Source: Paracoccaceae bacterium
Lineage (GTDB): Bacteria; Pseudomonadota; Alphaproteobacteria; Rhodobacterales; Rhodobacteraceae
DNA length: 64,000 bases
Assembly: GCA_963662395.1 (NCBI GenBank)
Contig: OY759511.1
Location: 4,100,820 to 4,164,819, forward strand
Reading direction: 5' to 3'
The notes beneath the pieces are model-generated. The model had not been told where the DNA came from, searched no databases, and worked only from the letters and a program-made list of their open reading frames with translations. Each line of letters opens with the position of its first letter. Position 1 is the first letter of the stretch. Positions 3,769 through 28,802 of the stretch are shown here, piece by piece. The position numbers and the translations under genes are program-made.

Positions 3769-3950
3769 GGCAATCAGCGCCTGGCACAGGCCGGGTGTTG
3801 CCTTCGATCCGAAATATCCCGTGCGGTCTCTCCTCTCACGAGAGCCCGATCCATGGAATCCGGCATCTATCGAGTCAATGCATCGAGGGATGCCGGGCTT
3901 GCGCCGGCAGGCAGGGAATGGAACACATCGTATCCAGGAGACACTGCCCC

Positions 3951-4238
3951 ATGACCGATATCGATCCCATCGTGCAGCGCATGGAAGCCTTCAATCGGGA
4001 AAATGGCGGCGGTGTGAGTGTTCGCAAGAGCCGGGGCGGCTACAACCTTGCCATGACCGAAACCGGGGCACCGGTCGCCCGGCTGAAGCCGGAGGGACCG
4101 GGCGACCGGATGCGGATCCTGTACTGGTCATGGCAGGAAAGGTGGAAGGATGTCGGCGACATGGGCGGCATTGTGCTGCCGCTTGACGAAGCACTCGATC
4201 AGATCGCCACTACGGAAATCTTCTGGACCTGGACGTGA
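3951..4238 (+). CDS. Small conserved hypothetical protein (95 aa; DUF3024-like from memory only), IS passenger
   Basis: AGGAG lies 10 nt upstream of ATG 3951. Sequence MTDIDPIVQRMEAFNRENGGG...RMRILYWSWQERWKDVGDMGG...IFWTWT. A second copy at 45628-45915 differs by 2 aa. Confidence 0.5.
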   Translation: MTDIDPIVQRMEAFNRENGGGVSVRKSRGGYNLAMTETGAPVARLKPEGPGDRMRILYWSWQERWKDVGDMGGIVLPLDEALDQIATTEIFWTWT

Positions 4239-5612: not shown

Positions 5613-6730
5613 AGAGGGCCCACCTGACCGATGCCGGCATTCGCAGGCTGAAGCCCGGTGCCCGCGAATACACAATCCGCGACAGCCGGGTCTCCTCCCT
5701 CTGTGTCCGGGTCTACCCGTCCGGATCCAGGGTCTTCGTCTTCCAGTCTGGGTCATGGAAGCAGTCGCTGGGCCCGGCCGCGCTCATGAAGGTCGCTGAA
5801 GCACGGCAGCGATGCTTGAGGATTGAGTCTGCCGGCAGGGACCAACGAGCCGCGGCGCCGGTGTTTGCTGATTTCTGCGCCGGAGAATGGCGCGACTCCT
5901 GGCTTCCCCGCTGCAAGCCGTCGACGATCCGTGGGCGGGACTGGATCCTGGACTCCCTGCTGCTGCCTGCGTTCGGCGGCCTTCGCATCGACCGGGTGGC
6001 GCCGTCTGACATTCACCAATGGTTTGACGCGTATAGCCGGACATCACCCGGGGCTGCCAATCATGCATTGGGTGTGCTGCGCCAGGTCTTCAACCATGCG
6101 GTCAGGCTCGAATACGTCACCGCCAACCCGGCGAGGAGCGTCAGGCCCAATCCGCGCCCGAAGCGCACCCGGTTCCTCTCGCAGGAGGAAATCTGCCGGC
6201 TGCACCAATGCCTTGACCGCCATGCAGCCGGGCGGCGTGGCCAGCAGGCGGACATCATCCGCCTCTTGCTCCTGACCGGCTGCCGCAAGAACGAGATAGT
6301 CCGCCTCAGGTGGCGGGAGGTGAATGGCGACCATCTGCGGCTCGAGGACAGCAAGACCGGCCCGCGAACGGTGTTCCTGAACCGGACGGCGCAGGAGATC
6401 ATCGAGGGCCGGCTGGCAATGACCACAGGCGAGTTCGTGTTTCCCTCTCCCATGGATCCTGACAGGCCGATCTCGGACATTTTGGCCCTCTGGTACGAGA
6501 TGCGCCAGGAGATCGGACTTGAGGATGTCCGCCTCCATGATCTTCGCCATACCTATGCAAGTCAGGCCGTGATGCGGGGGGGGGTTCCTCTTCTTGTCGT
6601 GGCAAGGCTTCTGGGCCACAGCTAGGTTCAGATGACAATGCGTTACGCGCATGTGGGAGACCGCGATGTCGAGGCGGCAGCCGAGCGGATTGGTGAGGTC
6701 GTGGCCGGGGCGCTGGCGGGGAAAGGGTAA
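5609..6730 (+). pseudogene. Second tyrosine integrase with in-frame TAG (6623-6625) upstream of the catalytic Tyr
   Basis: ATG 5609 overlaps the stop of the first integrase (ATGA). N-terminus MKRAHLTDAGIRRLKP. The reading is ...RLHDLRHTYASQAV...LLGHS-TAG-VQMTMRYAHVGDRD..., and the frame continues to TAA 6728-6730. Confidence 0.8.
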
Positions 6731-6798
6731 GCGGAGGGAGGCGAGTCTCTGGATCTCCGGCGGTCTCGCTCCAGACCATGTGGACAGTCACTGTGCCG

Positions 6799-7222
6799 TT
6801 AGCATGCCATACCGGTTGCGGGGTGGGAGTGAACGGCATTGGCGACATCTGGCGAGAATCGCCATGTTGCTGGCGGCAAGGCAATCGTGACGGTCCCCAT
6901 GTCATTGGGGCGGCGAGAACCGGGTGGAATTGCCCGCCACTGGCAGCCGGTTCCCAGCATGTACTGGATGGCGTTCCATACCTCCCGCAGGCAGGTGCTG
7001 CGCGGGCGTCCCATCTTCGAGGGCGGCGGAAGGAGCGGTTCGATCACTTGCCATTCGGCATCGGTCAAATCGGTTTCAAATCGCCGTGCGAGTCGCCTAT
7101 ACTGCTGCCGGGTGGTTTCGCTCCAGGGCATGTGGATATCTCCTGTTGGTGTTGAAGTTAACAGGACTATGCCACGAATTTTCGCCGGGCGCGAATCTGC
7201 CCACTTTTGGTCAGGTTCTTAG
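6799..7222 (-). mobile_element. Truncated IS5-family remnant (about 70 N-terminal transposase codons plus the terminal repeat)
   Basis: MPWSETTRQQYRRLARRFETDLTDAEWQVIEPLLPPPSKMGRPRSTCLREVWNAIQYMLGTGCQWRAIPP, after which similarity is lost. The end sequence at 7181-7222 parallels 1667-1711. Confidence 0.6.
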
Positions 7223-19226: not shown

Positions 19227-21279
19227 AAGGCTCGGTCAGCGCCGCCGTCTGATGATCAAGCTGCCTGTCCTGCCCGTGCCGCCGTTTTCCGGTGCGTTGC
19301 GGCAGAGTTGGTGTCGGCGGTTCAGAATCACAATCTGACTTCAACAGGTCCAGACCACTCGGACTCCCGCGCATTGTTACACCCGTTTCTTCACGAACCG
19401 ACTCGCCAGCGGCCAGCCGATCAATCATATCTCGTTGCTGGCAAACGTGAAGTCAGGCATTAGAACGGTCAATGCTCGGCGTTGATCAACCAGGCGATCT
19501 GACAATCCCATGCCCATCCAGGAAAATGCCCTCAATTCCGCATTGACCGAAGCGCTTTCAACGCATGACCTTCATGCCACGCCGGAACAGACGAAGGCAA
19601 AGAGCGGCGCCAAGCGGTGTGACGTGCGGATTCGACGGCGGCACGGCGACCGCTATTTCACGGCTCTTGAGTGCAAGATTGGACAGAGCACGACGCAGCA
19701 GCAGGCGGCGGTCAAGGATGCACAAAGATGGCTCAAGGAGAGCGACTGCTGGAACGCGCTTGCTCTTTGCTATCCGGAGGAGCTGAGCGAGGACCGACAG
19801 GCGACATCACGGCAGAGGCTGGAAATTGCGAGCGACCTCCTGATGGTCAAGATCAGCAAGGCCGGCATGATCGGACGCTGGCGAGAGGGAAGTCTGGCCG
19901 ATCTGGCAATACTCGCCGACGATATCGGCGCCAACGAGACCTATGCGGTCACCGACATCCTGCAGCGGGCAATACTCGAGGCAAGCGAAGAACTGGATTC
20001 ATCAACAGGACAGGAACTGGCCGAAACGCTGGAACTTCCATGGGATCCGGGCAAGAGCGGCGTTGATCCGCGACCGGCGCGTATTGCCTGTCTTGTCATG
20101 GCCAACATGGCCTTGCTGCAGAATCGCATGCGAAGCGAGGGAATCAGGGTCGCCGGTCTCGACCCGCTCGTTGCGTTAAGAAATGCTCCGAACAAGCAGA
20201 CGGCACTGCTCGACAACTGGCAGCGAATCCGTGACATCGACTATGCACCGGTTGTCGACCCGGCCCTTGCAGTGCTCCAGAAGCTGCCGAGCGACCACCA
20301 TACCGACAATGTGCTCGGGGTTCTGATCGAGGCTGTACTCGAATGCGCGCCGAGGATCCGCGGACTGCAACTGGACCATGCCGGGCCACTCTATCACGGT
20401 CTGTTGCAGACGGCGCGATATGACGGCTCGTTCTATACGAGCACGGCTGCGGCAGTGTTGCTGGCCGAATTGGCAATGCCGCCCGATTGGTCCGTCGTGG
20501 GCGATGGCTGGTCAGATGCCAGCAGGCTGATGGATCTCAAGGTTTGTGATCCGGCATGCGGTACCGGAACATTGCTCATGGCTGCCGCACGGACGATCGA
20601 GGGACGGTTTCGATCAGCCGGCGGTGACGAGACCGATCTTTCCGTCTTGCATCTTGGTCTGATCGAGAATGTGCTGCATGGGCTCGACATCAACCGCCAT
20701 GCGATTCACCTGGCCGCTTCCATGCTGACGCTCAGCGCACCGAAGATCGACTACAACAAGATGAATCTCTACAACATGCGGCATGGCGTGATGCGGCATG
20801 GCGAGAGCGCCAATGAAGAAGTGCGCGCTGGCTCGCTCGACATTCTGATCGACAATGCCGGGTACCTATCGGTGCTGGTACCGGACAACAGCCAGGAGTT
20901 GGCGCCGGACACCAGCCAGCATCGGGTGACCGCGTCCGGATACGGGGAAGAGGCGCCTGACCTCGAAGGAACTTGTGACCTCGTCATCATGAACCCGCCA
21001 TTCACCCGGAATGACATCCGCAATCGCAGCCTGCCTGAGTCGGACCGCAAGAAGGTGCAGAAACACGAGATATCACTTGCAAGAAACGTCCGGGACAAAA
21101 TTCACCGTGATGCGATAGACCAATCGACAATAGGCACATTCTTCACTCCGATTGCCGATCGACTGCTGAATTGCAGGGGAGTCATGGCAATTGTAAAGCC
21201 ATTTACCGCGTGCACCAATGCCAGCGGCAAGAGTGAACGGAATCTCCTTACAGACCCCGACCGGTTTCACCTTGAATTA

Positions 21280-22149
21280 GGGCCTGTTGACAATCGGGTT
21301 GCGAATCAGCCGCGTCAATGCCATTTTCCCTGCAACGCACGCCGGAATGGCGGCACGAGCAGTATAGAGGCAAATGACGGATGAATACAGACAGGACGGT
21401 GCTCACCGACGCCATGTGGGCGCGGACCCGCCCCATGCTGCCCGGCAAGGCGACCGATCCCGGCGCCGCCCGGCAGTGGGCAGGCAGTTTCTCGAGGCAG
21501 TACTCTGGCGGGCCCGCCGGCTCGCCATGGCGCGACCTTCCCGAGAGTTTCGGAAACTGGAACAGTGTCTTCAAGCGCTTCCGCAGATGGGCCCTTTCGG
21601 GCATTTTCGAACAGGTATTCAACGAGCCCCCGGATGAGTTCGACCTCGAATACGTGTTCGTGGACGGCACCATCGTGCAGGCCCACCAGAAGGCGGCCGG
21701 CGCAAAAGGGGGACCTGCCGGCAGGGGATCGGACGCTCCCGGGGCGGCCTGACCAGCAAGATCGTGGCAATCGTGGACGCCCTTGGCTGTCTCGTGCGCT
21801 TCGTGATCCTTCCCGGACAGGCACATGATCTTCTCGGGGTGCCGGAACTTCTTGCAGACCTCCGCTACGGGGCCCTCATCGGCGACAGGGCATTCGATGC
21901 CGACTGGCTGATCGAGGAGATCGGGGAGAGCGGCGCCATGGCGGTGATTCCCGCGAGGCGCCACCGGACAGTGCCCCGGCATCATGATCCCGAGATGTAC
22001 AAGTGGCGACACCAGATCGAGAACTTCTTCGCAAGAATCAAGGAGTTCCGGGCAGTGGCGACCCGCTACGACAAGACCGACACGAGCTTCGCGGCGGCGA
22101 TTCATCTCGTCAGTGGCGTGGTTGCGGCAACATGATTGTCAACAGGCCC
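21280..22149 (+). mobile_element. IS5-family (IS427-group-like) IS, copy 1 (870 bp)
   Basis: Termini GGGCCTGTTGACAATC and GATTGTCAACAGGCCC. TA target duplication at 21278-21279 and 22150-22151. Confidence 0.85.
21381..22135 (+). pseudogene. orfA/orfB transposase of IS copy 1 (normally joined by a -1 frameshift near GCAAAAGGGGG); orfA damaged
   Basis: The orfB part (VDALGCLVRFVILPGQAHD...RYDKTDTSFAAAIHL) is intact. In orfA the conserved VGRQFLEAVLWR stretch reads in another frame (GAARQWAGSFSRQYSGGPAG), which implies two compensating indels. Confidence 0.7.
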
Positions 22150-23137
22150 TAGTCATTACGAGCCACGACAACCGCCGGATCTATTTCTCCGAAAACACGG
22201 ATATCCATGAATCCCTGATTGTCGCACGCCGTCCAGCACCGGAAACCCGAGAGCGGCAGACAGCATTCGTCTCTCTTGCCGAGAACCCCGCCCATGCAAG
22301 TGAAGCGCATTTTCTTGCGGAGGCAATCCGGAAGGCACTCGACGGCGATAACAGCCTCCTGGCCAATTTCGGCACCATTGCCTGGCGGAGCGCAGGCCAG
22401 CTTCGGGACCGTCCGTGGAACGCTGCGTGCTTCTATCACCAGAGCCTTGCCGATGCATATGACGGGATGCTCGACAATCCCGCACTGGCAGCCATCGGCA
22501 ATCTTGCGAAGGTCGAACCAGAAGGACGAAGGATCAGGGATGCGTTCGGCAAGGCTGCGAATCGACAGAACCCGGACATGCGGGCCCTCTGGCAGCACAA
22601 ATCCGCTCGCCAAACCAAAATGCGAACGGGTCCGGACGAGTTTCTGGTCGCCAAGGAGGGCAAGCACCCATACGCCCAAAAACTCTGGCAGAAACGGAGC
22701 CATCTTCTGCTTGCCAATCGCATGTGGCTGAATTTGACGCAAACGCCGGCGGTGTTCTCGGATGATCAGATTCTGGGGTCGGCCTTTGTCCCGGTGTCTC
22801 CGGTTGAAGGCGATAAAGAACAATTGTGCAAGGCGTGGTGCGTCTGGCTGAATTCGACATTCGGCATCATTGCCTTCCTGAACACACGCCAGAAGAAACT
22901 CACCTATCCGAGTTTTTCCCTTGATGGTCTGCGGTCGCTTCCGGTTCCGGATCCCGCCCGTTGCGACATCGAGGGTTTGGCAGCGACCTACGACCTGCAC
23001 GCGAACGACACCTTGAAACCGCTTCCCGAAATTCATGCTGATCCGGTACGTCATATTCTTGATGAGGCCGCCATCCGAGCAATTCCCGGGTTGTCCGAAA
23101 GCGATGTTGCAGGCTGGCGGCAGTCAATCTCGCTGGA

Positions 23138-23186
23138 GCCCAGTGTCAATAATGAGAAGGAACCGTTTCGGCTGACGTGATGTTGA
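23138..23186 (+). repeat. 49-bp perfect direct repeat, copy 1 (includes the last 13 codons and stop of the type IIG-like gene)
   Basis: GCCCAGTGTCAATAATGAGAAGGAACCGTTTCGGCTGACGTGATGTTGA is identical at 26969-27017. Confidence 0.95.
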
Positions 23187-23443: not shown

Positions 23444-23791
23444 ATGAGGAGGAGATCGTTGACGCGTGATCTCATGCACACCTTCTTGGACCTGGGTGAT
23501 GCCACGTCGCGCAATCTCGGGTTCTCGCATCGGAGCGACGTCTGGGTGAGCTACGGTGAGGAGACCATCACCGAGACCAATCTTCTGGAGATCAGGCGGC
23601 GGCATCCCCACCATGTCCGTGTCCGCACCTTCCCGAAGCAGATCGAGGCGACGAACGGCGCGGACTGGGAATGGCGCATCGTCGGCTTGAAGCGAACGGG
23701 CCCTGCTGCAAAAATTGGGAATTATATACTTGCCGGAACTGGGTCGCCTGCTCTAAGCGTGGTGCATGAAAAACGAATCGTCAAATCCTGA
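23444..23791 (+). CDS. Hypothetical ORF, possibly the 5' fragment of a longer gene
   Basis: MRRRSLTRDLMHTFLDLGD...EETITETNLLEIRRRHPHHVRVRTFPKQIEATNGADWEWRIVG looks protein-like, then degenerates before the stop at 23789-23791. Confidence 0.25.
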   Translation: MRRRSLTRDLMHTFLDLGDATSRNLGFSHRSDVWVSYGEETITETNLLEIRRRHPHHVRVRTFPKQIEATNGADWEWRIVGLKRTGPAAKIGNYILAGTGSPALSVVHEKRIVKS

Positions 23792-23939
23792 TAATCAGCC
23801 TAAGCTGAAAAAAGACCAGTCCACCCGTCCACCCGTCCACCCGTCCACCCGTCCACCCGTCCACCCGTCCACCCGTCCACCCGTCCACCCGTCCACCCGT
23901 CCACCCGTCCACCCGTCCACCCGTCCACCCGTCCAATGA
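23766..23939 (+). other. 57-codon leader frame running through the octamer repeat and ending at TGA 23937-23939
   Basis: ATG 23766 gives MKNESSNPDNQPKLKKDQ followed by STRPPVHP repeats. With 14 units it is +2/-1 out of frame with the methyltransferase. Confidence 0.6.
23821..23932 (+). repeat. Simple sequence repeat (CCACCCGT)x14, perfect
   Basis: Counted directly: 112 bp in 14 units, with no stop codon in any + frame. Confidence 0.97.
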
Positions 23940-23988
23940 AGCCAACTGGCTGAACCGCACCCTCTTCCACGGCGACAATCTGAAATTC

Positions 23989-25245
23989 ATGCGGGCCATG
24001 AACTCGGAGTCGGTGGACTTGATCGCCACCGACCCGCCGTTCAACAAGGGTCGTGACTTCCATGCCACGCCCGATAGCCTCGCCGCCGGGGCCAAGTTCC
24101 AGGACAGGTGGTCATGGGAGCGGGATGTTCACCAGGAATGGGTTGACCAACTGCAGGATGACTACCCCGCGGTATGGGCCGTCATTGACTGGTCTCGAAT
24201 GACCTATGGCGATGACTTGGGCGCATTCCTGTGTTTCATGGCCGTTCGTCTTCTGGAAATGCACAGGCTACTCAAGCCGACTGGCAGCATCTATCTGCAC
24301 TGCGATCCGACCGCGTCACACTATCTGAAAACGCTAATGGACGCAGTGTTCGGAAATAAGCAATTTCGAAATGAAATTGTGTGGTGCTACTCGACTTCTG
24401 GACGAGCCAAAACCTGCTTTGCCCACAAACACGACATCATCCTGTATTACGCCAAGAGCAGGAATGCGTATTGGTCTGGATACAGGATCCCGGTCACGGA
24501 TAAATATCTCGACAGCCATTACAGGCAGATTGACGAGGACGGCAACCGATGTCGGATACGCACCGACCATGGCAAAACAAGAATATATTACCCGGATGAC
24601 GGGATGACATGTAACGATTGGTGGACGGAGTTTCCATATGTCAACTCTCAAGCCAAGGAACGATATGGCTACCCGACGCAAAAGCCGCTGAAACTCTATG
24701 ACCGCATCATTGAAGCATCCAGCAAGGAGGGTGACATCGTCCTTGATCCGTTCGCCGGTTGCGCCACAACCCTTGTCAGTGCCGAAAAACTGCAACGGGA
24801 ATGGGTAGGAATTGACATCTGGGATGATGCACACAAGGCCGTGATTGACCGTCTGAATGCAGATGTGATTGGCACTATCGGGATGTTTGGCAAAGTGCAT
24901 CTTGAAACCAAGCCGCCCCTTCGCACCGATGATAAGCAAACAGCCGCGCCCTTCCTGCGGGTCAAGCAGCGCGTGAAGGAACCGGAAGGGCAGAAGTGGA
25001 CACGGGCGCAGATGTACGAGCACTTGCTAGGCCAGCACGGCCCCCGATGTCAGGGCTGCGACCGTGCATTTGATGATCCGCGCTACCTTGAACTCGACCA
25101 CAACACGCCCCGCAGTGACGGCGGGCTCAATCACATATCGAACCGCATTTTGCTTTGCAGCCCTTGCAACCGGCTAAAATCGAACACATTCACGCTGTCG
25201 GGGTTGAGGCTGGAGAACATGAAGCGCGGATTCATGGCGAAATAG
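23989..25245 (+). CDS. N4/N6 DNA methyltransferase (pfam01555-type) fused to a C-terminal HNH nuclease domain; coordinates start at the first in-frame ATG, which lies inside the conserved N-terminal block
   Basis: SVDLIATDPPFNKG gives the DPPF motif and SIYLHCDP...FRNEIVWCY follows. Near the C-terminus of the MTase part is DIVLDPFAGCATT (FxGxG). The C-terminus YLELDHNTPRSDGGLNHISNRILLCSPCNRLKSN is an HNH motif. The frame is open upstream to 23809. Confidence 0.85.
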   Translation: MRAMNSESVDLIATDPPFNKGRDFHATPDSLAAGAKFQDRWSWERDVHQEWVDQLQDDYPAVWAVIDWSRMTYGDDLGAFLCFMAVRLLEMHRLLKPTGSIYLHCDPTASHYLKTLMDAVFGNKQFRNEIVWCYSTSGRAKTCFAHKHDIILYYAKSRNAYWSGYRIPVTDKYLDSHYRQIDEDGNRCRIRTDHGKTRIYYPDDGMTCNDWWTEFPYVNSQAKERYGYPTQKPLKLYDRIIEASSKEGDIVLDPFAGCATTLVSAEKLQREWVGIDIWDDAHKAVIDRLNADVIGTIGMFGKVHLETKPPLRTDDKQTAAPFLRVKQRVKEPEGQKWTRAQMYEHLLGQHGPRCQGCDRAFDDPRYLELDHNTPRSDGGLNHISNRILLCSPCNRLKSNTFTLSGLRLENMKRGFMAK

Positions 25246-25254
25246 GAGGGCGCA

Positions 25255-25530
25255 ATGACCCATAGGAGACAGGTGATGACAGAAGACGAAATGCGTAGCG
25301 AAATAGACCGTCTACAAGGCGAACTATCGGCGGCGACCGCCTGCATCGGCGACATTTTCCAAATCATCATCAATCTCGGTGGCGATGACATGCATGGTGT
25401 CGTTCTTGGAAAGATCAACAGTCGCAGGATTGAGATTGGTGCACTCGACATCAAAGGACCCGATTGGCGGGCTGGCATCCAACGCTTCAATGATCGCCTT
25501 GCGAAAGTCCTCACGCGTGATGAAAGTTGA
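25255..25530 (+). CDS. Hypothetical 91-aa protein downstream of the methyltransferase, tentative
   Basis: AGGAGG lies 6 nt before ATG 25255 and overlaps the MTase stop. First codon positions are purine-rich. A codon-aligned antisense ORF (25324-25533) competes with it. Confidence 0.35.
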   Translation: MTHRRQVMTEDEMRSEIDRLQGELSAATACIGDIFQIIINLGGDDMHGVVLGKINSRRIEIGALDIKGPDWRAGIQRFNDRLAKVLTRDES

Positions 25531-25590
25531 CATGGCACAATGCTCCGACTAGATTGGTTTCCAGCCGGAAGGTCACGTCATTGAATTTTG

Positions 25591-25632
25591 CGCCCCGCCC
25601 AGTCGCCAAACTTGCGGGGCGTTGTGCTTTTT
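25591..25632 (+). terminator. Possible rho-independent terminator
   Basis: Stem CGCCCCGC (25591-25598) pairs with GCGGGGCG (25614-25621) and is followed by TTGTGCTTTTT. The 15-nt loop is long, so this is only tentative. Confidence 0.3.
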
Positions 25633-26614
25633 AGCCCCTTGCGCCAGAGGCCAATCCGTTGTCGGCCTTGAGCGTCTTGTATGTCAGGCGCTTCCCGACC
25701 ATTCCACTGACAAGATAACCCATCTGGTCAACAGTGTTCAAGTCTCGAACGTTGTGACGACCTGCAAAATCGGCGACATAGCGATCAAGATGCTTGACGC
25801 TGAATTTGTGATAAACGCCCTTGTGCGCTCGCTTCAGGACACTCCAGAAACTCTCGATCCCGTTGGTGTGCGCCATTTCCCGGACGTATTCTCCAGCCGA
25901 GTGATTGACGCTCTCATGCGCCCTGTCCATCCCCACATAGCCGCGCCCATCATCGGTGTAGACCTGCGCTTCCGGCTCGGTGCGGCCTTCCACGAAACCC
26001 TGCAGGGTCGCGGCCTTCGTGTCGGTCACAACCGCGGCGGACACCCGGTTGGTATCCCGATCCTTCAATCCGGCAACAATTGACTTGCCGACAGCTCCCC
26101 GGCCGGCATTCAGCTTCTTGTCGGCGTGCTTGTTCTTCTCAACGCCGCCGATATAGGTTTCGTCCGCCTCGACCGGCCCGCCGAACGGCGGCTCGTCATC
26201 ATCTTCGAACGCCTTGCGAATGCGCTGGAGCATGAACCACGCGGTTTTCTGCGTCACGCCCAGATCCCGATGCAGCTTCATGCTGGACACGCCCTTGAGG
26301 CTGGTGAGGTGCATGTAGATGGCGATGGCCCAATCCTGGAAGCTGATCTTCGACCGCTCCAGAAGCGTCCCGATGCGGACACTGAAATGCTGTTTGCAAT
26401 CGCGGCAATGGTAGGGTCGGCGCTCGGCTCCCTTGTTCTCTGTCGTGTTGACCGATCCGCAATGCGGGCAATGGCGGCCATTCGGCCATATCTGCGCTTC
26501 GAACCATTTTCTGGCTGCATCTTCGGTCGGGAATTTCTGCATCAATTCCTTGACCGTCATTCCTTGCCGCTCTGATCTTCCGGGTGCTGTCGCCATGTCC
26601 GTGTTTCCCTTCAC
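25631..26614 (-). CDS. IS1595-family transposase (327 aa from the first ATG; may start at MTVKELMQKF)
   Basis: N-terminal zinc ribbon WPNGRHCPHCGS...YHCRDCKQHFS. DDE part VEADETYIGG, VYTDDGRGY, HTNGIESFWSVLKR. Element ends not resolved. Confidence 0.9.
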   Translation of the reverse strand: MKGNTDMATAPGRSERQGMTVKELMQKFPTEDAARKWFEAQIWPNGRHCPHCGSVNTTENKGAERRPYHCRDCKQHFSVRIGTLLERSKISFQDWAIAIYMHLTSLKGVSSMKLHRDLGVTQKTAWFMLQRIRKAFEDDDEPPFGGPVEADETYIGGVEKNKHADKKLNAGRGAVGKSIVAGLKDRDTNRVSAAVVTDTKAATLQGFVEGRTEPEAQVYTDDGRGYVGMDRAHESVNHSAGEYVREMAHTNGIESFWSVLKRAHKGVYHKFSVKHLDRYVADFAGRHNVRDLNTVDQMGYLVSGMVGKRLTYKTLKADNGLASGARG

Positions 26615-26728
26615 AAACGAATATAGGGATCGTCGGCTATTCCGTCAAGTATATAATCCCCCAAAAATTGCTCTCAGTTCTCCTTGTGAGCGAGGTCGCG
26701 GTAGATTGTGCTTCTTGGAGACTCTCCC

Positions 26729-26872
26729 ATGACCCATGACTTCACGTGGCGGCTTTTCCGGGGCGAGATCATTCCGTGGGCAGTTCAGTGGTATTGCCGA
26801 TATGACGTCGGCTATCGTGACCTCGAGGAAATGCTGGAAGAGCGCGGCATCAAGGTTGACCACACCGTGTTC
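26729..26872 (+). pseudogene. IS6-family transposase N-terminal fragment
   Basis: MTHDFTWRLFRGEIIPWAVQWYCRYDVGYRDLEEMLEERGIKVDHTV parallels the IS26-type N-terminus (F.GRHF..DIILWAVRWYCKYGISYRELQEMLAERGV.VDHST). Homology is then lost. Confidence 0.55.
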
Positions 26873-26968
26873 AAGGGCTTCGTGGCGATGGGTGCCCTCC
26901 GGAAGAAGCAGGCCAAGGCCTTCCAGCTTCAGCCCGGCATCAGGGGCGAAGTGCGTCTTGTCGAACGT

Positions 26969-27017
26969 GCCCAGTGTCAATAATGAGAAGGAACCGTTTC
27001 GGCTGACGTGATGTTGA
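26969..27017 (+). repeat. 49-bp perfect direct repeat, copy 2
   Basis: Identical to 23138-23186. Confidence 0.95.
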
Positions 27018-27167: not shown

Positions 27168-28802
27168 ATGACTTTGAAAGACGACTTGCTAAGAAAAGGC
27201 TATCTGCCCGAGAACTTGCCACCTGCCTTTACGACAAAGCTAATTGCAGACCATTTCTTGGAACAGCCATCAAGCAACTTTCACACGCGACTCGGAACCC
27301 CACTTAGAGCTGCCACATACAATGCATCCAAACGCGGTCTGACCCGACGTGTTTTTTCTGCAGTGCATCCTGCCACCGCCCATAACATGGCAAAATTCGT
27401 CTCCGATCGCTGGGACGAAATCACGGTGTTCTTGTCGCAGAGCAATACAAGCTTCTCGATTCCTGAACATACTGAAGATACAGACCGCGCGCTTGTTATC
27501 AAATCACACATGGCACTTGAAAAGGAGAAATATAAACGCTTGTCCGCATGCCGTTTCATTGCAGGGACTGATATCGCTCGATTTTACCACTCGATATACA
27601 CACATTCGATCCCATGGGCCTTTCATGGAAAGGCTAATGCAAAAGCGGACCGCCGCCTGCGATCACAGCAGGTGTTTTTCAATCGCGCCGACGCCGTGAT
27701 ACGCAATGGCCAAGACGGTCAAACCGTGGGTATCCCGGTTGGGCCAGACATGTCCAGAGTCTTTGCCGAGGTGATCGGAGTCGCAATTGACAAGGAGTTC
27801 GAACAACGACGTGAAGGCATCGATTGCGAGGTAATCCGCCATGTGGATGATGTCTGGATTGGTGCTAATTCGCATGCGGACGCAGAACAAGCGTTGTCGC
27901 TATACCGGGAGGCAATCCGGGAATTCGAGCTGGACATCAACGAGAGTAAAACCGGCATATTTGCGACGGAGTTCAGCTTTTCGGACTATTGGCCAACCGA
28001 GATTTCAAATCAGATCGAGTTCGCCATCAATTCACCCAAACCCCGAGCAAATGACCGCCTGCGCTCGACGCTTGAGCATGTCTTTGCCATGGCTGTTTCA
28101 CGTAACGATGAGGGTATCCTCAAATATGTTCTGCGCTACGTCGATCAACACAATCGGAAATGGAATTGGGATGTCGTTGAACCATTCCTGAAGCGGATGG
28201 CAGTTCATTTTGGTCACACGATCGACTACATAGCGCGTATCTTGATTTGGCGGCAGCTTACCCGTGGCGATCTCGACCTTAATGGCTGGAGTCGAATCAT
28301 GGGCGAAGTTCTTGGCAAGCATGGACGCCTTGGCAACGACAGCGAGGTATGCTGGACCATTTATGCTCACCATCACCTGGACGTGAAGGTTAGCCACGAA
28401 GCCGCAAAGCATATCGTCAGGAACTGCGGCGCACTTTCTATCGTTGCACTGCTTAATACCATCGATCGTGCCGGTAATAATCTTGACATCTTTAAGGATG
28501 CGTTTGAGCGGCTAAAGGCGGAAAATGACTCCGGGCGATACTGGCCTGTGTTTTTGGAATGGAAAACAAAGCATTGGCCAAGACATGTTGACATCGTATT
28601 ATCCAATCCGACAATCAAGGCATTGCACGAAAGCGGTGCCCATGTCTACGATCTAGAGACCCTGCCGGCCGTTTTCCAGAATGTCGAAAAGGTTGAGTTC
28701 GAGAAAGTTGCCAGTGCCATAGAAATACTATCGGAAATTTACGGCCACGGAGAAGAAAATGATGATGAGTTTCTAATAGATGGCATGGATTCAGCTATTT
28801 GA
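27168..28802 (+). CDS. Reverse transcriptase of the defence-associated UG/Abi type with a helical C-terminal extension (544 aa)
   Basis: RT motifs GTDIARFYHSIYTHSIPWA (motif A-like), GIPVGPDMSRVFAEV (motif B), VIRHVDDVWIG (xVDD motif C) and ELDINESKTGIF. About 270 aa of helical sequence follow. Lower GC. No msr/msd-like repeats recognised upstream. Confidence 0.8.
   Translation: MTLKDDLLRKGYLPENLPPAFTTKLIADHFLEQPSSNFHTRLGTPLRAATYNASKRGLTRRVFSAVHPATAHNMAKFVSDRWDEITVFLSQSNTSFSIPEHTEDTDRALVIKSHMALEKEKYKRLSACRFIAGTDIARFYHSIYTHSIPWAFHGKANAKADRRLRSQQVFFNRADAVIRNGQDGQTVGIPVGPDMSRVFAEVIGVAIDKEFEQRREGIDCEVIRHVDDVWIGANSHADAEQALSLYREAIREFELDINESKTGIFATEFSFSDYWPTEISNQIEFAINSPKPRANDRLRSTLEHVFAMAVSRNDEGILKYVLRYVDQHNRKWNWDVVEPFLKRMAVHFGHTIDYIARILIWRQLTRGDLDLNGWSRIMGEVLGKHGRLGNDSEVCWTIYAHHHLDVKVSHEAAKHIVRNCGALSIVALLNTIDRAGNNLDIFKDAFERLKAENDSGRYWPVFLEWKTKHWPRHVDIVLSNPTIKALHESGAHVYDLETLPAVFQNVEKVEFEKVASAIEILSEIYGHGEENDDEFLIDGMDSAI

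What the first reader, a model, noticed from the sequence alone, without database searches (positions are those of the whole stretch)
23766..25245. Octanucleotide repeat (CCACCCGT)x14 holds a methyltransferase-HNH fusion out of frame: candidate slipped-strand phase-variable R-M switch
Seen directly: 14 perfect tandem CCACCCGT units (23821-23932) with no stop codon in any + frame. ATG 23766 opens a frame (MKNESSNPDNQPKLKKDQ then STRPPVHP repeats). With 14 units this frame ends at TGA 23937-23939. The enzyme frame is open from 23809 through the whole repeat. It contains no ATG, GTG or TTG until ATG 23989. That ATG lies inside the conserved N-terminal block of pfam01555-type methyltransferases (NRTLFHGDNLKF-M-RAMNSESVDLIATDPPFNKG). 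The FHGDNL part is therefore encoded upstream of the only available start. Because the unit is 8 bp, 15 or 12 units (any multiple of 3) would fuse ATG 23766 to the enzyme frame, whereas 13, 14, 16 or 17 units would not. This is the architecture of contingency-locus R-M genes (phasevarions) known from Neisseria, Haemophilus, Helicobacter and Mycoplasma. Two things are unusual here. The setting is a high-GC, alphaproteobacterium-like genome. The switched gene couples a DNA methyltransferase to an HNH nuclease (YLELDHNTPRSDGGLNHISNRILLCSPCNRLKSN) in one polypeptide, so both modification and cleavage would toggle together.
Basis: partly seen in the sequence, partly recalled or inferred. Interest (0 to 1): 0.85.

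Follow-up and report, generated by a model that had tools for sequence, protein, structure and literature searches.

The report
Repeat-switched methylase-nuclease on a transposon
Fourteen identical 8-base repeats sit inside the start of a DNA methylase-nuclease gene carried by a jumping gene and put it out of frame, so gaining one repeat or losing two would turn it back on; this is a known kind of on/off switch in a new setting, and nobody has yet seen it flip.

Summary
(CCACCCGT)x14 lies at 23821-23932. ATG 23766 reads into it and stops at TGA 23937. The enzyme frame has no start codon before ATG 23989. Only 9, 12, 15 or 18 units join the two frames.

Comparative evidence supports the frame-switch reading. 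The first 14 nt of the leader match the start of an intact homologue (L263, MKNESRANW). Its NPD..LK..Q segment matches the N-terminal extension of P0111 and P0027, and "EANW" after the tract is shared by several homologues. So the array lies inside the real ORF.

Relatives carry other repeats at the same place: poly-C8 (L127, out of frame), a (GGCAACC)x3.7 heptamer (L260, in frame) and a scaffold gap (L128).

The methylase-HNH fusion is not unusual: the search returned its maximum of 8000 hits, and most loci examined adjoin IS1595 transposases.

Apart from the array, the ORF looks undecayed (1 of 159 conserved columns deviates).

Actual switching is untested, because no reads or sister strains were available. 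A dead-end pseudogene remains the main rival.

Verdict: a new member of the known class of repeat-controlled, phase-variable methyltransferases.

The parts
23709..23716 (.). Left copy of the 8-bp target-site duplication CAAAAATT
   Evidence: Identical octamer directly outside both inverted repeats.
23717..23738 (+). Left terminal inverted repeat (IRL) GGGAATTATATACTTGCCGGAA of an IS1595-family transposon. It contains a -35-like TTGCCG at 23730-23735.
   Evidence: 20 of 22 nt complementary to 26640-26661 (pair I3). The same IR core is found at L127, L249/253, L261, L263 and L125.
23766..23820 (+). Start codon and unique N-terminal leader (MKNESSNPDNQPKLKKDQ) of the methylase-HNH ORF
   Evidence: The first 14 nt are identical to the start of the intact homologue in L263 (MKNESRANW). 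The NPD..LK..Q segment is homologous to the N-terminal extension of P0111 and P0027. ATG 23766 lies 31 nt from the IR core, compared with 29 nt for the transposase GTG and 35 nt for the L249 and L263 methylase ATGs.
23819..23935 (+). Octanucleotide array: 14 perfect CCACCCGT units (23821-23932), 14.6 units as a period-8 run. The complementary strand is (GGGTGGAC)n, a canonical G-quadruplex motif.
   Evidence: Three non-overlapping matches to G3N1-7G3N1-7G3N1-7G3 on the minus strand.
23766..23939 (+). 57-aa leader ORF made in the 14-unit (OFF) state, ending at TGA 23937-23939
23941..25245 (+). Methylase-HNH enzyme frame (434 codons from NEANW to the stop). The beta-class N6/N4 methylase domain is about 24013-24837 and the HNH domain about 25048-25185. 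The conserved N-terminal block NWLNRTLFHGDNL starts at 23944.
   Evidence: Pfam PF01555 at 5.6e-43 and PF01844 at 1.4e-9. PDB relatives are CcrM, M.MboIIA, M.RsrI and Type III Mod subunits; the Mod alignments start at query residues 6-7. Only 1 of 159 family-conserved columns deviates.
23989..23991 (+). First in-frame start codon of the enzyme frame (an internal Met). The public annotation starts three codons later, at ATG 23998 (P0001, 415 aa).
25255..25530 (+). 91-aa ORF of unknown function with a good Shine-Dalgarno sequence (AGGAGGG). This slot holds variable cargo in related elements.
   Evidence: No family hit. Not conserved in related elements.
25631..26614 (-). IS1595-family DDE transposase (327 aa), convergent with the methylase gene. 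TTGACG-17-TATATT lies in or next to IRR, 5 nt before its GTG start.
   Evidence: NCBIfam NF033547 at 190 bits against a cut-off of 75, plus Pfam DDE_Tnp_IS1595 and Zn_ribbon_IS1595. Promoter geometry read from the sequence.
26640..26661 (-). Right terminal inverted repeat (IRR; reverse complement GGGGATTATATACTTGACGGAA)
26662..26669 (.). Right copy of the 8-bp target-site duplication CAAAAATT

Best explanation
The array is a slipped-strand frame switch inside the authentic 5' coding region of a methylase-HNH gene. That gene is cargo of a 2,945-bp IS1595-family transposon (23717-26661).

How it would work:
- Translation starts at ATG 23766. This codon lies 31 nt inside the left inverted repeat, where relatives place a leaderless or short-leader start fed by a -35 embedded in the inverted repeat.
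- With 14 units the ribosome stops at TGA 23937 and makes only a 57-aa proline-rich peptide. The enzyme is OFF.
- Slippage during replication adds or removes 8-bp units.
- With 15 units (495 aa) or 12 units (487 aa), the leader, an (STRPPVHP)n linker and the full enzyme are read as one protein. The enzyme is ON.
- With 13 or 16 units the third frame is read, and it stops at TGA 23951.
- So one length state in three is ON, and methylase and HNH activities appear and disappear together.

Shown here: the anatomy, the frame arithmetic, the homology of both flanks of the array to intact ORFs, the transposon boundaries, and the recurrence of other repeats at this site in relatives.

Inferred: that the tract length actually varies in the population, that ATG 23766 is transcribed and used, that the G-quadruplex-prone complementary strand promotes slippage, and that the switch is biologically used, for example to let the element settle in a new host with a dangerous methylase-nuclease silent.
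For: - Frame arithmetic is verified.
- The leader is real coding sequence. ATGAAAAACGAATC is identical to the start of the intact 431-aa homologue in L263, which has the same IR and starts MKNESRANW.
- AATCCTGAYA...CTGAAARARGRCCAG (NPDx..LKxxQ) is shared with the in-frame N-terminal extension of P0111 in L261, an element with the same IRs and the same convergent transposase. P0027 has the equivalent SRLERGQPA.
- 'EANW' immediately after the tract, in the enzyme frame, is shared by P0027, P0043, P0060 and P0101.
- Independent repeats of different sequence occur at the homologous position. L127 has poly-C8 right after its ATG; it is OFF as assembled and ON at C7 or C10. L260 has (GGCAACC)x3.7; it is ON as assembled and OFF at plus or minus 1 or 2 units. 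L128 has a scaffold gap of about 24 N between the ATG and the NW codons.
- 117 of the 120 best homologues contain the N-terminal FHGDN block. The three that start at the internal Met are the window itself, L127 and L128.
- The enzyme ORF shows no decay: 1 of 159 conserved columns deviates, which equals the family median.
- The element looks recently active: perfect TSD, 20 of 22 IR match, intact transposase.
- REBASE surveys accept tracts of at least 3 units of 4-9-nt repeats in methylase ORFs as phase-variable, and they report such loci in environmental bacteria (PMC5909438, PMC7383803).
Against: - No read data, sister strains or alternative alleles exist in any collection searched, so length variation is unobserved.
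- No ON-state protein carrying this leader plus STRPPVHP repeats was found in the word-index protein search.
- The IRL-proximal promoter is degenerate in the window (TTGCCG-16-TCTAAG). ATG 23766 has only a weak, badly spaced GGTG as a possible Shine-Dalgarno sequence.
- The only consensus promoter hit (ATGAAA-18-GATAAT, 23766-23795) would start transcription downstream of ATG 23766.
- Decay is common among transposon-borne copies. L249/253 has a 10-nt duplication plus a second frameshift, and L251 has one frameshift.
- Only 3 of about 19 distinct family loci examined carry a 5' repeat, plus one with a gap.
- The same octamer array occurs in other phyla as a non-coding element just upstream of start codons, so such arrays can exist without any frame-switch role.
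Confidence: 0.62

Rival explanations
1. Dead-end pseudogene. A repeat expanded in the 5' coding region of a transposon cargo gene and knocked it out. The gene is on its way to decay like other copies, and no adaptive switching takes place.
For: Several transposon-associated homologues are plainly decayed: L249/253 has two frameshifts, one of them a 10-nt duplication just before the internal Met, and L251 has one. The surrounding island is littered with IS insertions and gene fragments. No ON allele exists in the databases searched. The IRL promoter is degenerate.
Against: The array is the only lesion. The 434-codon enzyme frame is open and deviates at 1 of 159 conserved columns, the family median. 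Fourteen perfect units make the lesion intrinsically reversible. Independent non-3n repeats at the same codon position in L127 and L260 are hard to explain by random decay. However, the insertion looks recent (perfect TSD), so the lack of decay is only weak evidence.
Confidence: 0.22
2. Assembly miscount. The true genome has 15 or 12 units, or the consensus hides a mixture. The gene would then simply be intact, with an in-frame proline-rich linker.
For: Tandem arrays of 112 bp are a classic place for unit miscounts in consensus assemblies. One unit more would give a clean 495-aa ORF.
Against: The assembly looks accurate elsewhere. Two IS copies are 100% identical over 1410 nt, and operon junctions show ordinary 4-nt overlaps. 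This cannot be tested without reads. A mixed population would in fact be the phase-variation hypothesis itself.
Confidence: 0.08
3. The array is a 5'-UTR element abutting the native start codon ATG 23936, as in other genomes. A 1-nt deletion (ATG AA[N] GCC AAC TGG) broke the frame, and ATG 23766 is fortuitous.
For: ATG 23936 lies 8 nt before the NW codons, where most homologues have an in-frame ATG or GTG at 9-15 nt; compare L120 ATG GCG GCC AAC TGG. In other phyla the same array often ends 0-15 nt before start codons: 27 of 127 arrays, against 13.6% at random positions. A promoter-like GATAAT at 23790-23795 would place ATG 23936 first in the transcript.
Against: The leader upstream of the array is homologous, at both DNA and protein level, to in-frame N-termini of intact relatives. 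'GAA GCC AAC TGG' (EANW) is in-frame coding sequence in at least 4 homologues, so the ATG created by AAT-GAA needs no deletion to explain it.
Confidence: 0.04
4. The enzyme is made constitutively from the internal ATG 23989 or 23998, as annotated publicly. The array would then be irrelevant to its expression.
For: The Pfam domain model starts after this Met. Public annotation calls a 415-aa protein from ATG 23998. The Met is conserved in the family.
Against: 117 of 120 homologues include the upstream N[WF]xNRTL[FY]HGDN-type block. Type III Mod structures align from query residues 6-7, so the block belongs to the methylase fold. No Shine-Dalgarno sequence is visible before 23989. The only other proteins starting at this Met have a repeat or a gap upstream.
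Confidence: 0.04

Closest known systems
[quoted passage not shown]
   Same: A beta-class N6-adenine-type methylase (PF01555 fold; Mod subunits are among its PDB relatives). A non-3n simple repeat sits shortly after the start codon and sets ON or OFF by reading frame. Repeat types arose independently at the same region of related genes. The central target-recognition region is variable and is flanked by conserved ends.
   Different: There is no separate res gene; instead an HNH nuclease is fused to the C-terminus. The gene is cargo of an IS1595 transposon. The unit is 8 nt. The host is a 62% GC genome rather than a small-genome pathogen. No evidence exists that methylation regulates other genes.
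Type I hsdM/hsdS/hsdR genes containing simple repeats (REBASE survey, PMC7383803)
   Same: Candidate phase-variable restriction-modification genes identified purely from repeat tracts in ORFs, including in environmental species. Octanucleotide units were explicitly among the accepted classes.
   Different: A different enzyme class. Those are multi-subunit systems and are not transposon cargo.
Phase-variable single-chain Type IIG restriction-modification enzymes, e.g. Campylobacter jejuni cj0031 with a poly-G tract (from my own knowledge, not checked here)
   Same: One polypeptide carries both nuclease and methylase, so a frameshifting repeat toggles both activities at once.
   Different: Type IIG enzymes combine an N-terminal PD-(D/E)XK nuclease with a gamma-class methylase. 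Here a beta-class methylase carries a C-terminal HNH domain, and its cleavage activity is unproven.
IS1595-family insertion sequences and transposons with passenger genes (Siguier, Gagnevin and Chandler 2009; seen in the reference list of PMC2853133; details from my own knowledge)
   Same: A DDE transposase with an N-terminal zinc ribbon, short terminal inverted repeats, an 8-bp target duplication, and extra passenger ORFs.
   Different: I found no description of a methylase-HNH passenger gated by a simple repeat.

Membership tests
Repeat-mediated phase-variable gene (contingency locus) | Perfect tandem repeat with a unit not divisible by 3, of a length known to slip, located inside the ORF or promoter | tested here: met
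   Fourteen perfect 8-nt units at 23821-23932, between the start codon and the conserved enzyme core.
Repeat-mediated phase-variable gene (contingency locus) | An authentic start codon upstream of the tract whose frame joins the enzyme frame at some unit numbers | tested here: met
   ATG 23766 joins the enzyme frame at 9, 12, 15 or 18 units. The start and leader are homologous to those of intact relatives L263, L261 and L260.
Repeat-mediated phase-variable gene (contingency locus) | Tract length differs between cells, clones or strains | not testable with these tools
   No reads were available. The genome is a singleton in every collection searched.
Repeat-mediated phase-variable gene (contingency locus) | Expression or activity follows tract length | not testable with these tools
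   Needs an experiment.
Phasevarion (methylase-controlled regulon) | Switching of the methylase changes genome methylation and the expression of other genes | not testable with these tools
   No methylome or transcriptome data.
Beta-class N6/N4 DNA methyltransferase (PF01555) | DPP[YF] catalytic motif followed by the AdoMet-binding motif, with a significant profile match | tested here: met
   PF01555 at 147.9 bits against a cut-off of 26.7. TDPPF and LDPFAGCATT are present. PDB relatives are CcrM, M.MboIIA, M.RsrI and EcoP15I Mod.
HNH nuclease domain (PF01844) | HNH/HNN motif with two zinc-binding CxxC pairs | tested here: met
   PF01844 at 38.4 bits against a cut-off of 21.4. The motif reads CQGC...DHNTPRSDGGLNHISNRILLCSPCN. 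Catalytic activity was not tested.
Restriction-modification system (single-chain) | Sequence-specific cleavage of unmodified DNA that is blocked by the enzyme's own methylation | not testable with these tools
   Only the domain content is known. PADLOC matches cover the methylase part only.
IS1595-family transposable element | IS1595-type DDE transposase | tested here: met
   NF033547 at 190 bits against a cut-off of 75, plus PF12762 and PF12760.
IS1595-family transposable element | Terminal inverted repeats and an 8-bp target-site duplication | tested here: met
   22-nt IRs matching at 20 of 22 positions, at 23717-23738 and 26640-26661. The TSD CAAAAATT lies on both sides. Sister elements L127 (TTCTGGAT) and L249 (TAAGTTTT) also have 8-bp TSDs.

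The most novel reading that the evidence does not exclude
A widespread lineage of IS1595 transposons carries a single-chain methylase-HNH module whose 5' end has repeatedly evolved hypermutable repeats: an octamer here, poly-C in L127 and a heptamer in L260. The transposon would therefore arrive in new genomes with its potentially lethal nuclease-methylase stochastically OFF and switch it ON later. That would make it a self-gating selfish or defensive cargo, and would represent phase variation acting for a mobile element rather than for the host.
Probability: 0.2. Interest if true: 0.75.

Novelty: new member of a known kind. Interest (0 to 1): 0.55.

Why it matters
Repeat-driven switching of DNA methyltransferases is well established in small-genome pathogens and has been predicted from REBASE surveys in environmental bacteria. 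If this locus really flips, it adds three things:
- A gene family not previously linked to phase variation in the papers I could search: methylase-HNH fusions, of which the protein search returned its maximum of 8000 matches.
- A case where the switched gene is transposon cargo. The switch would then travel with the element and could govern how a risky methylase-nuclease establishes itself in new hosts.
- A concrete, testable example in a high-GC, large-genome bacterium.

The recurrence of different repeats at the same codon position in relatives makes the family a good natural experiment on how contingency loci arise.

Tried and rejected
- **Native start at ATG 23936 with a 1-nt deletion.** For a while I favoured the idea that the array is a 5'-UTR element abutting ATG 23936. 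I rejected it as the main reading once the leader and the post-array EANW proved homologous to in-frame N-termini of intact relatives.
- **ON-state or sister alleles.** None was found. The leader-plus-repeat peptide gave only 8 unrelated short proteins. Exact look-ups of the window's methylase and transposase found nothing on record. Each of the four window or near-window proteins checked is alone in its cluster. Plasmids gave only two distant methylase matches. A protein-pattern scan of viral contigs found nothing.
- **The genome-wide scan for the octamer.** It returned at least 119 loci, but none carries the methylase or the IS. These arrays are an unrelated phenomenon.
- **Rfam searches.** They found nothing relevant at the locus or at the other-genome arrays.
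- **The metagenome scan for the conserved NWxNRTLFHGDN coding pattern.** It gave only 9 loci, and the viral scan gave 1. The sample for estimating how often 5' repeats occur in the family is therefore small, about 19 distinct loci.
- **Small ORFs between the methylase and the transposase.** They are not conserved between elements.
- **Literature searches.** They found no report of repeat-gated methylase-HNH genes or of IS1595 methylase-HNH cargo.
- **Not attempted.** I did not determine the host taxon. I did not run a structure prediction, because it would not bear on the switch.
Full report
**1. The observation**

The sequence is as described. A perfect (CCACCCGT)x14 lies at 23821-23932, and the period-8 run spans 23819-23935, or 14.6 units. 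It is by far the strongest tandem array in the window: TRF scores it 235, against 88 for the next best. The unit occurs nowhere else on either strand.

ATG 23766 opens a 57-aa ORF that runs through the array and stops at TGA 23937-23939. The enzyme frame is open from 23809 to the stop at 25243-25245. It has no ATG, GTG or TTG before ATG 23989.

I simulated 8 to 20 units. Only 9, 12, 15 and 18 units join ATG 23766 to the enzyme frame, giving 479-503 aa. All other numbers stop within a few codons after the array.

Pfam finds N6_N4_Mtase (5.6e-43) and HNH (1.4e-9).

**2. The enzyme family**

The methylase-HNH fusion is not rare. The protein search returned its maximum of 8000 hits at E<=1e-10, and every one of the 120 listed has both domains. 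The N-terminal 130 residues and the C-terminal HNH part are highly conserved. The central region varies in sequence and length, as expected for a target-recognition domain.

Of the 120 best hits, 117 contain the block N[WF]xNRTL[FY]HGDN, usually 2-5 residues after their Met. Solved Type III Mod subunits align from query residues 6-7, so this block belongs to the methylase fold.

Only three proteins start at the internal 'MNS[EN]S' Met: the window's own annotated product (P0001), P0003 and P0006.

**3.

The gene lies inside a transposon. A 22-nt inverted repeat pair matches at 20 of 22 positions:
- 23717-23738, GGGAATTATATACTTGCCGGAA
- 26640-26661, reverse complement GGGGATTATATACTTGACGGAA

The pair is flanked by a perfect 8-bp direct repeat, CAAAAATT, at 23709-23716 and 26662-26669.

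Between the inverted repeats lie the leader, the array, the methylase-HNH gene, a 91-aa ORF and a convergent IS1595-family transposase at 25631-26614 (NF033547, 190 bits against a cut-off of 75).

Almost every homologous locus I could fetch is also next to an IS1595 transposase or the same IR core: L120, L124, L125, L127, L249/253, L251, L257, L258, L260, L261 and L263. L127 (TSD TTCTGGAT) and L249 (TSD TAAGTTTT) have the same convergent layout and perfect 8-bp duplications.

The element sits in a lower-GC island (50-60%, against 62% for the whole window) that is full of IS copies and defence genes.

**4. Is ATG 23766 the real start?**

This was the crux. Initially I doubted it, for four reasons:
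- An ATG at 23936 abuts the array exactly where most homologues start, but one base out of frame.
- The leader is AT-rich and contains the only consensus promoter match.
- The leader peptide has no hit among the proteins the word-index search scored.
- The same octamer array in other phyla tends to lie just upstream of start codons.

Comparative data overturned this view:
- **L263 (P0071).** This is an intact 431-aa homologue behind the same IR. It begins ATGAAAAACGAATC... (MKNESRANW), identical to the window's first 14 nt.
- **L261 (P0111).** This element has the same IRs and the same convergent transposase. Its protein begins MPRKKNPDSLKEGQPAFGVPNW. The window's ...SNPDNQPKLKKDQ aligns with it at DNA level (AATCCTGAYA...CTGAAARARGRCCAG). 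P0027 has the equivalent SRLERGQPA.
- **After the array.** The enzyme frame reads NEANW, and 'EANW' is in-frame coding sequence in P0027, P0043, P0060 and P0101. The ATG produced by AAT-GAA therefore needs no special explanation.
- **Position.** ATG 23766 lies 31 nt from the IR core. The transposase GTG at the other end lies 29 nt from it, behind TTGACG-17-TATATT. The L249 and L263 methylase ATGs lie 35 nt from it, in L249 behind TTGACA-17-TACCAT.

Both flanks of the array are therefore authentic coding sequence of one ORF, and the array is an expansion within it.

**5. Recurrence of repeats at this site**

The two other proteins that start at the internal Met are explained by their 5' DNA:
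- **L127** has ATG GCT GTA T-C8-TT.... It is out of frame as assembled and in frame with C7 or C10.
- **L128** has a scaffold gap of about 24 N between its ATG and the NW codons.
- **L260 (P0027)** has a (GGCAACC)x3.7 heptamer directly before GAAGCCAACTGG. It is in frame as assembled and out of frame at plus or minus 1 or 2 units. The heptamer arises at the same 'GQPA' codons after which the window's octamer begins.

That makes three unrelated non-3n repeats at one homologous position, plus a gap, among about 19 distinct loci. This is the pattern REBASE surveys take as evidence for independently evolved phase-variable methylase genes (PMC5909438; PMC7383803).

**6. State of the gene**

Apart from the array's phase, the gene looks healthy. 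It deviates at 1 of 159 columns that are at least 95% conserved among 119 homologues, which is the family median. The catalytic DPPF, the AdoMet motif and the HNH/zinc motifs are all present.

This fits a reversible OFF state. It also fits a very recent knock-out, because the perfect TSD suggests a young insertion. Decay is common in sister elements: L249/253 has a 10-nt duplication just before the internal Met plus a second frameshift, and L251 has one frameshift.

**7. Mechanism and its weak points**

The most likely mechanism is slipped-strand mispairing of the 8-bp units. It would change the frame between ATG 23766 and the enzyme, so that one length state in three is ON, and methylase and HNH would toggle together.

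The complementary strand, (GGGTGGAC)n, matches the canonical G-quadruplex motif three times over. This could favour replication stalling and slippage, but that is inference.

The weak points are these:
- The IRL promoter is degenerate here (TTGCCG-16-TCTAAG).
- The Shine-Dalgarno sequence is poor.
- A better -10 (GATAAT, 23790-23795) lies downstream of the start codon.
- No length polymorphism could be observed, because the genome has no close relative in any collection.

**8. Comparison with known systems, and verdict**

[quoted passage not shown] It meets the sequence-level criteria for a contingency locus. The population-level and expression-level criteria are untested.

It should not be called a phasevarion or a restriction-modification system yet.

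What is new is the gene family, the transposon-cargo setting and the recurrence of repeats across elements. The mechanism itself is known. I rate it a new member of a known kind, with interest 0.55. My confidence that it is a working switch is about 0.6. The main rival is a dead-end pseudogene, at about 0.2.

Noticed in passing
One Gemmatimonadaceae MAG and one Rubrivirga MAG each hold many loci; Bacteroidota, Draconibacterium and Streptomyces also have them. 27 of 127 arrays end 15 nt or less before the start codon of a housekeeping gene (ackA, alr, mscL, surE, hisA and others) in sense orientation, against 13.6% at random positions and 6% in antisense. None is linked to the methylase or the IS.
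   Followed up: partly
L010:2890-2989(-), L049:4861-4960(-), L084:1282-1381(-), L086:3789-3888 and 6707-6806, L089:895-994 and 3877-3976, L096:6478-6577(-), L097:5604-5703(-): In the Rubrivirga and Bacteroidota-MAG loci the array is preceded by a conserved element of about 75 nt. It consists of the hairpin GGACACGAUGAAUCGUGUCC (with compensatory changes), then CUAC, a variable stretch, a second hairpin GCUGGCGG...CGGCCGG, and AGAU, followed by the array and then the start codon. It matches no Rfam family. It could be a mobile 5'-leader cassette or an unknown cis-regulatory RNA.
   Followed up: partly
Inverted pairs lie 0.46-3.5 kb apart, ranging from MITE-like to cargo-bearing. In L185 the pair at 6996 and 7723 encloses only a small, distantly related methylase.
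   Followed up: partly
window 26612-26648 (minus strand); L249 and L253: Both ends of these elements carry a -35 embedded in the IR, with the ORF start 5-6 nt after the -10. In the window this is TTGACG-17-TATATT-5-GTG for the transposase; in L249 it is TTGACA-17-TACCAT-6-ATG for the methylase. This suggests leaderless mRNAs.
   Followed up: partly
L253:1985-2000 and about 2880; L251: Sister transposon-borne methylase-HNH genes are frameshifted at sites that are not simple repeats. L253 has a 10-nt duplication (ATGAACGACT|ATGAAC) just before the conserved internal Met plus a second shift. L251 has one shift near residue 230. In the window, L127 and L253 alike, the disruption detaches the N-terminal NW..FHGDN block from a remainder that begins MNS[EN]SVDLIATDPPF.
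   Followed up: partly
window 27168-28802 (+): A defence-associated reverse transcriptase. It matches PADLOC Drt6 at 7.8e-139 and Drt4 at 3.5e-105, but falls below NCBIfam's Drt4 cut-off. It lies 0.5 kb beyond the transposon.
   Followed up: no
window 19510-23180 (+), with IR pair 21278-21302 / 22127-22151: A large PglX/Type IIG-like N6 methyltransferase gene appears to be split by an IS5-like insertion that has 25-nt inverted repeats and two transposase ORFs at 21381-22135.
   Followed up: no
window about 10.8-12.2 kb (-) and about 17.2-18.6 kb (+): Two inverted copies of another IS (438-aa transposase) are 100% identical over 1410 nt and bracket about 5 kb, resembling a composite transposon. 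The identity also suggests a low random error rate in the assembly.
   Followed up: partly
window 23138-23186 and 26969-27017; 26705-26983: A perfect 49-nt direct repeat flanks a 3.8-kb mosaic. The mosaic contains a truncated gene (23196 to about 23700), the IS1595 element and an N-terminal fragment of an IS6-type transposase. The origin of the duplication is unexplained.
   Followed up: no
L128:319-342: A TARA scaffold carrying a homologue at 69% identity has its only N-gap exactly between the start codon (ATGATGGCAAATTCGAAA) and CCCCCAACTGG. This may hide another repeat that could not be assembled.
   Followed up: no
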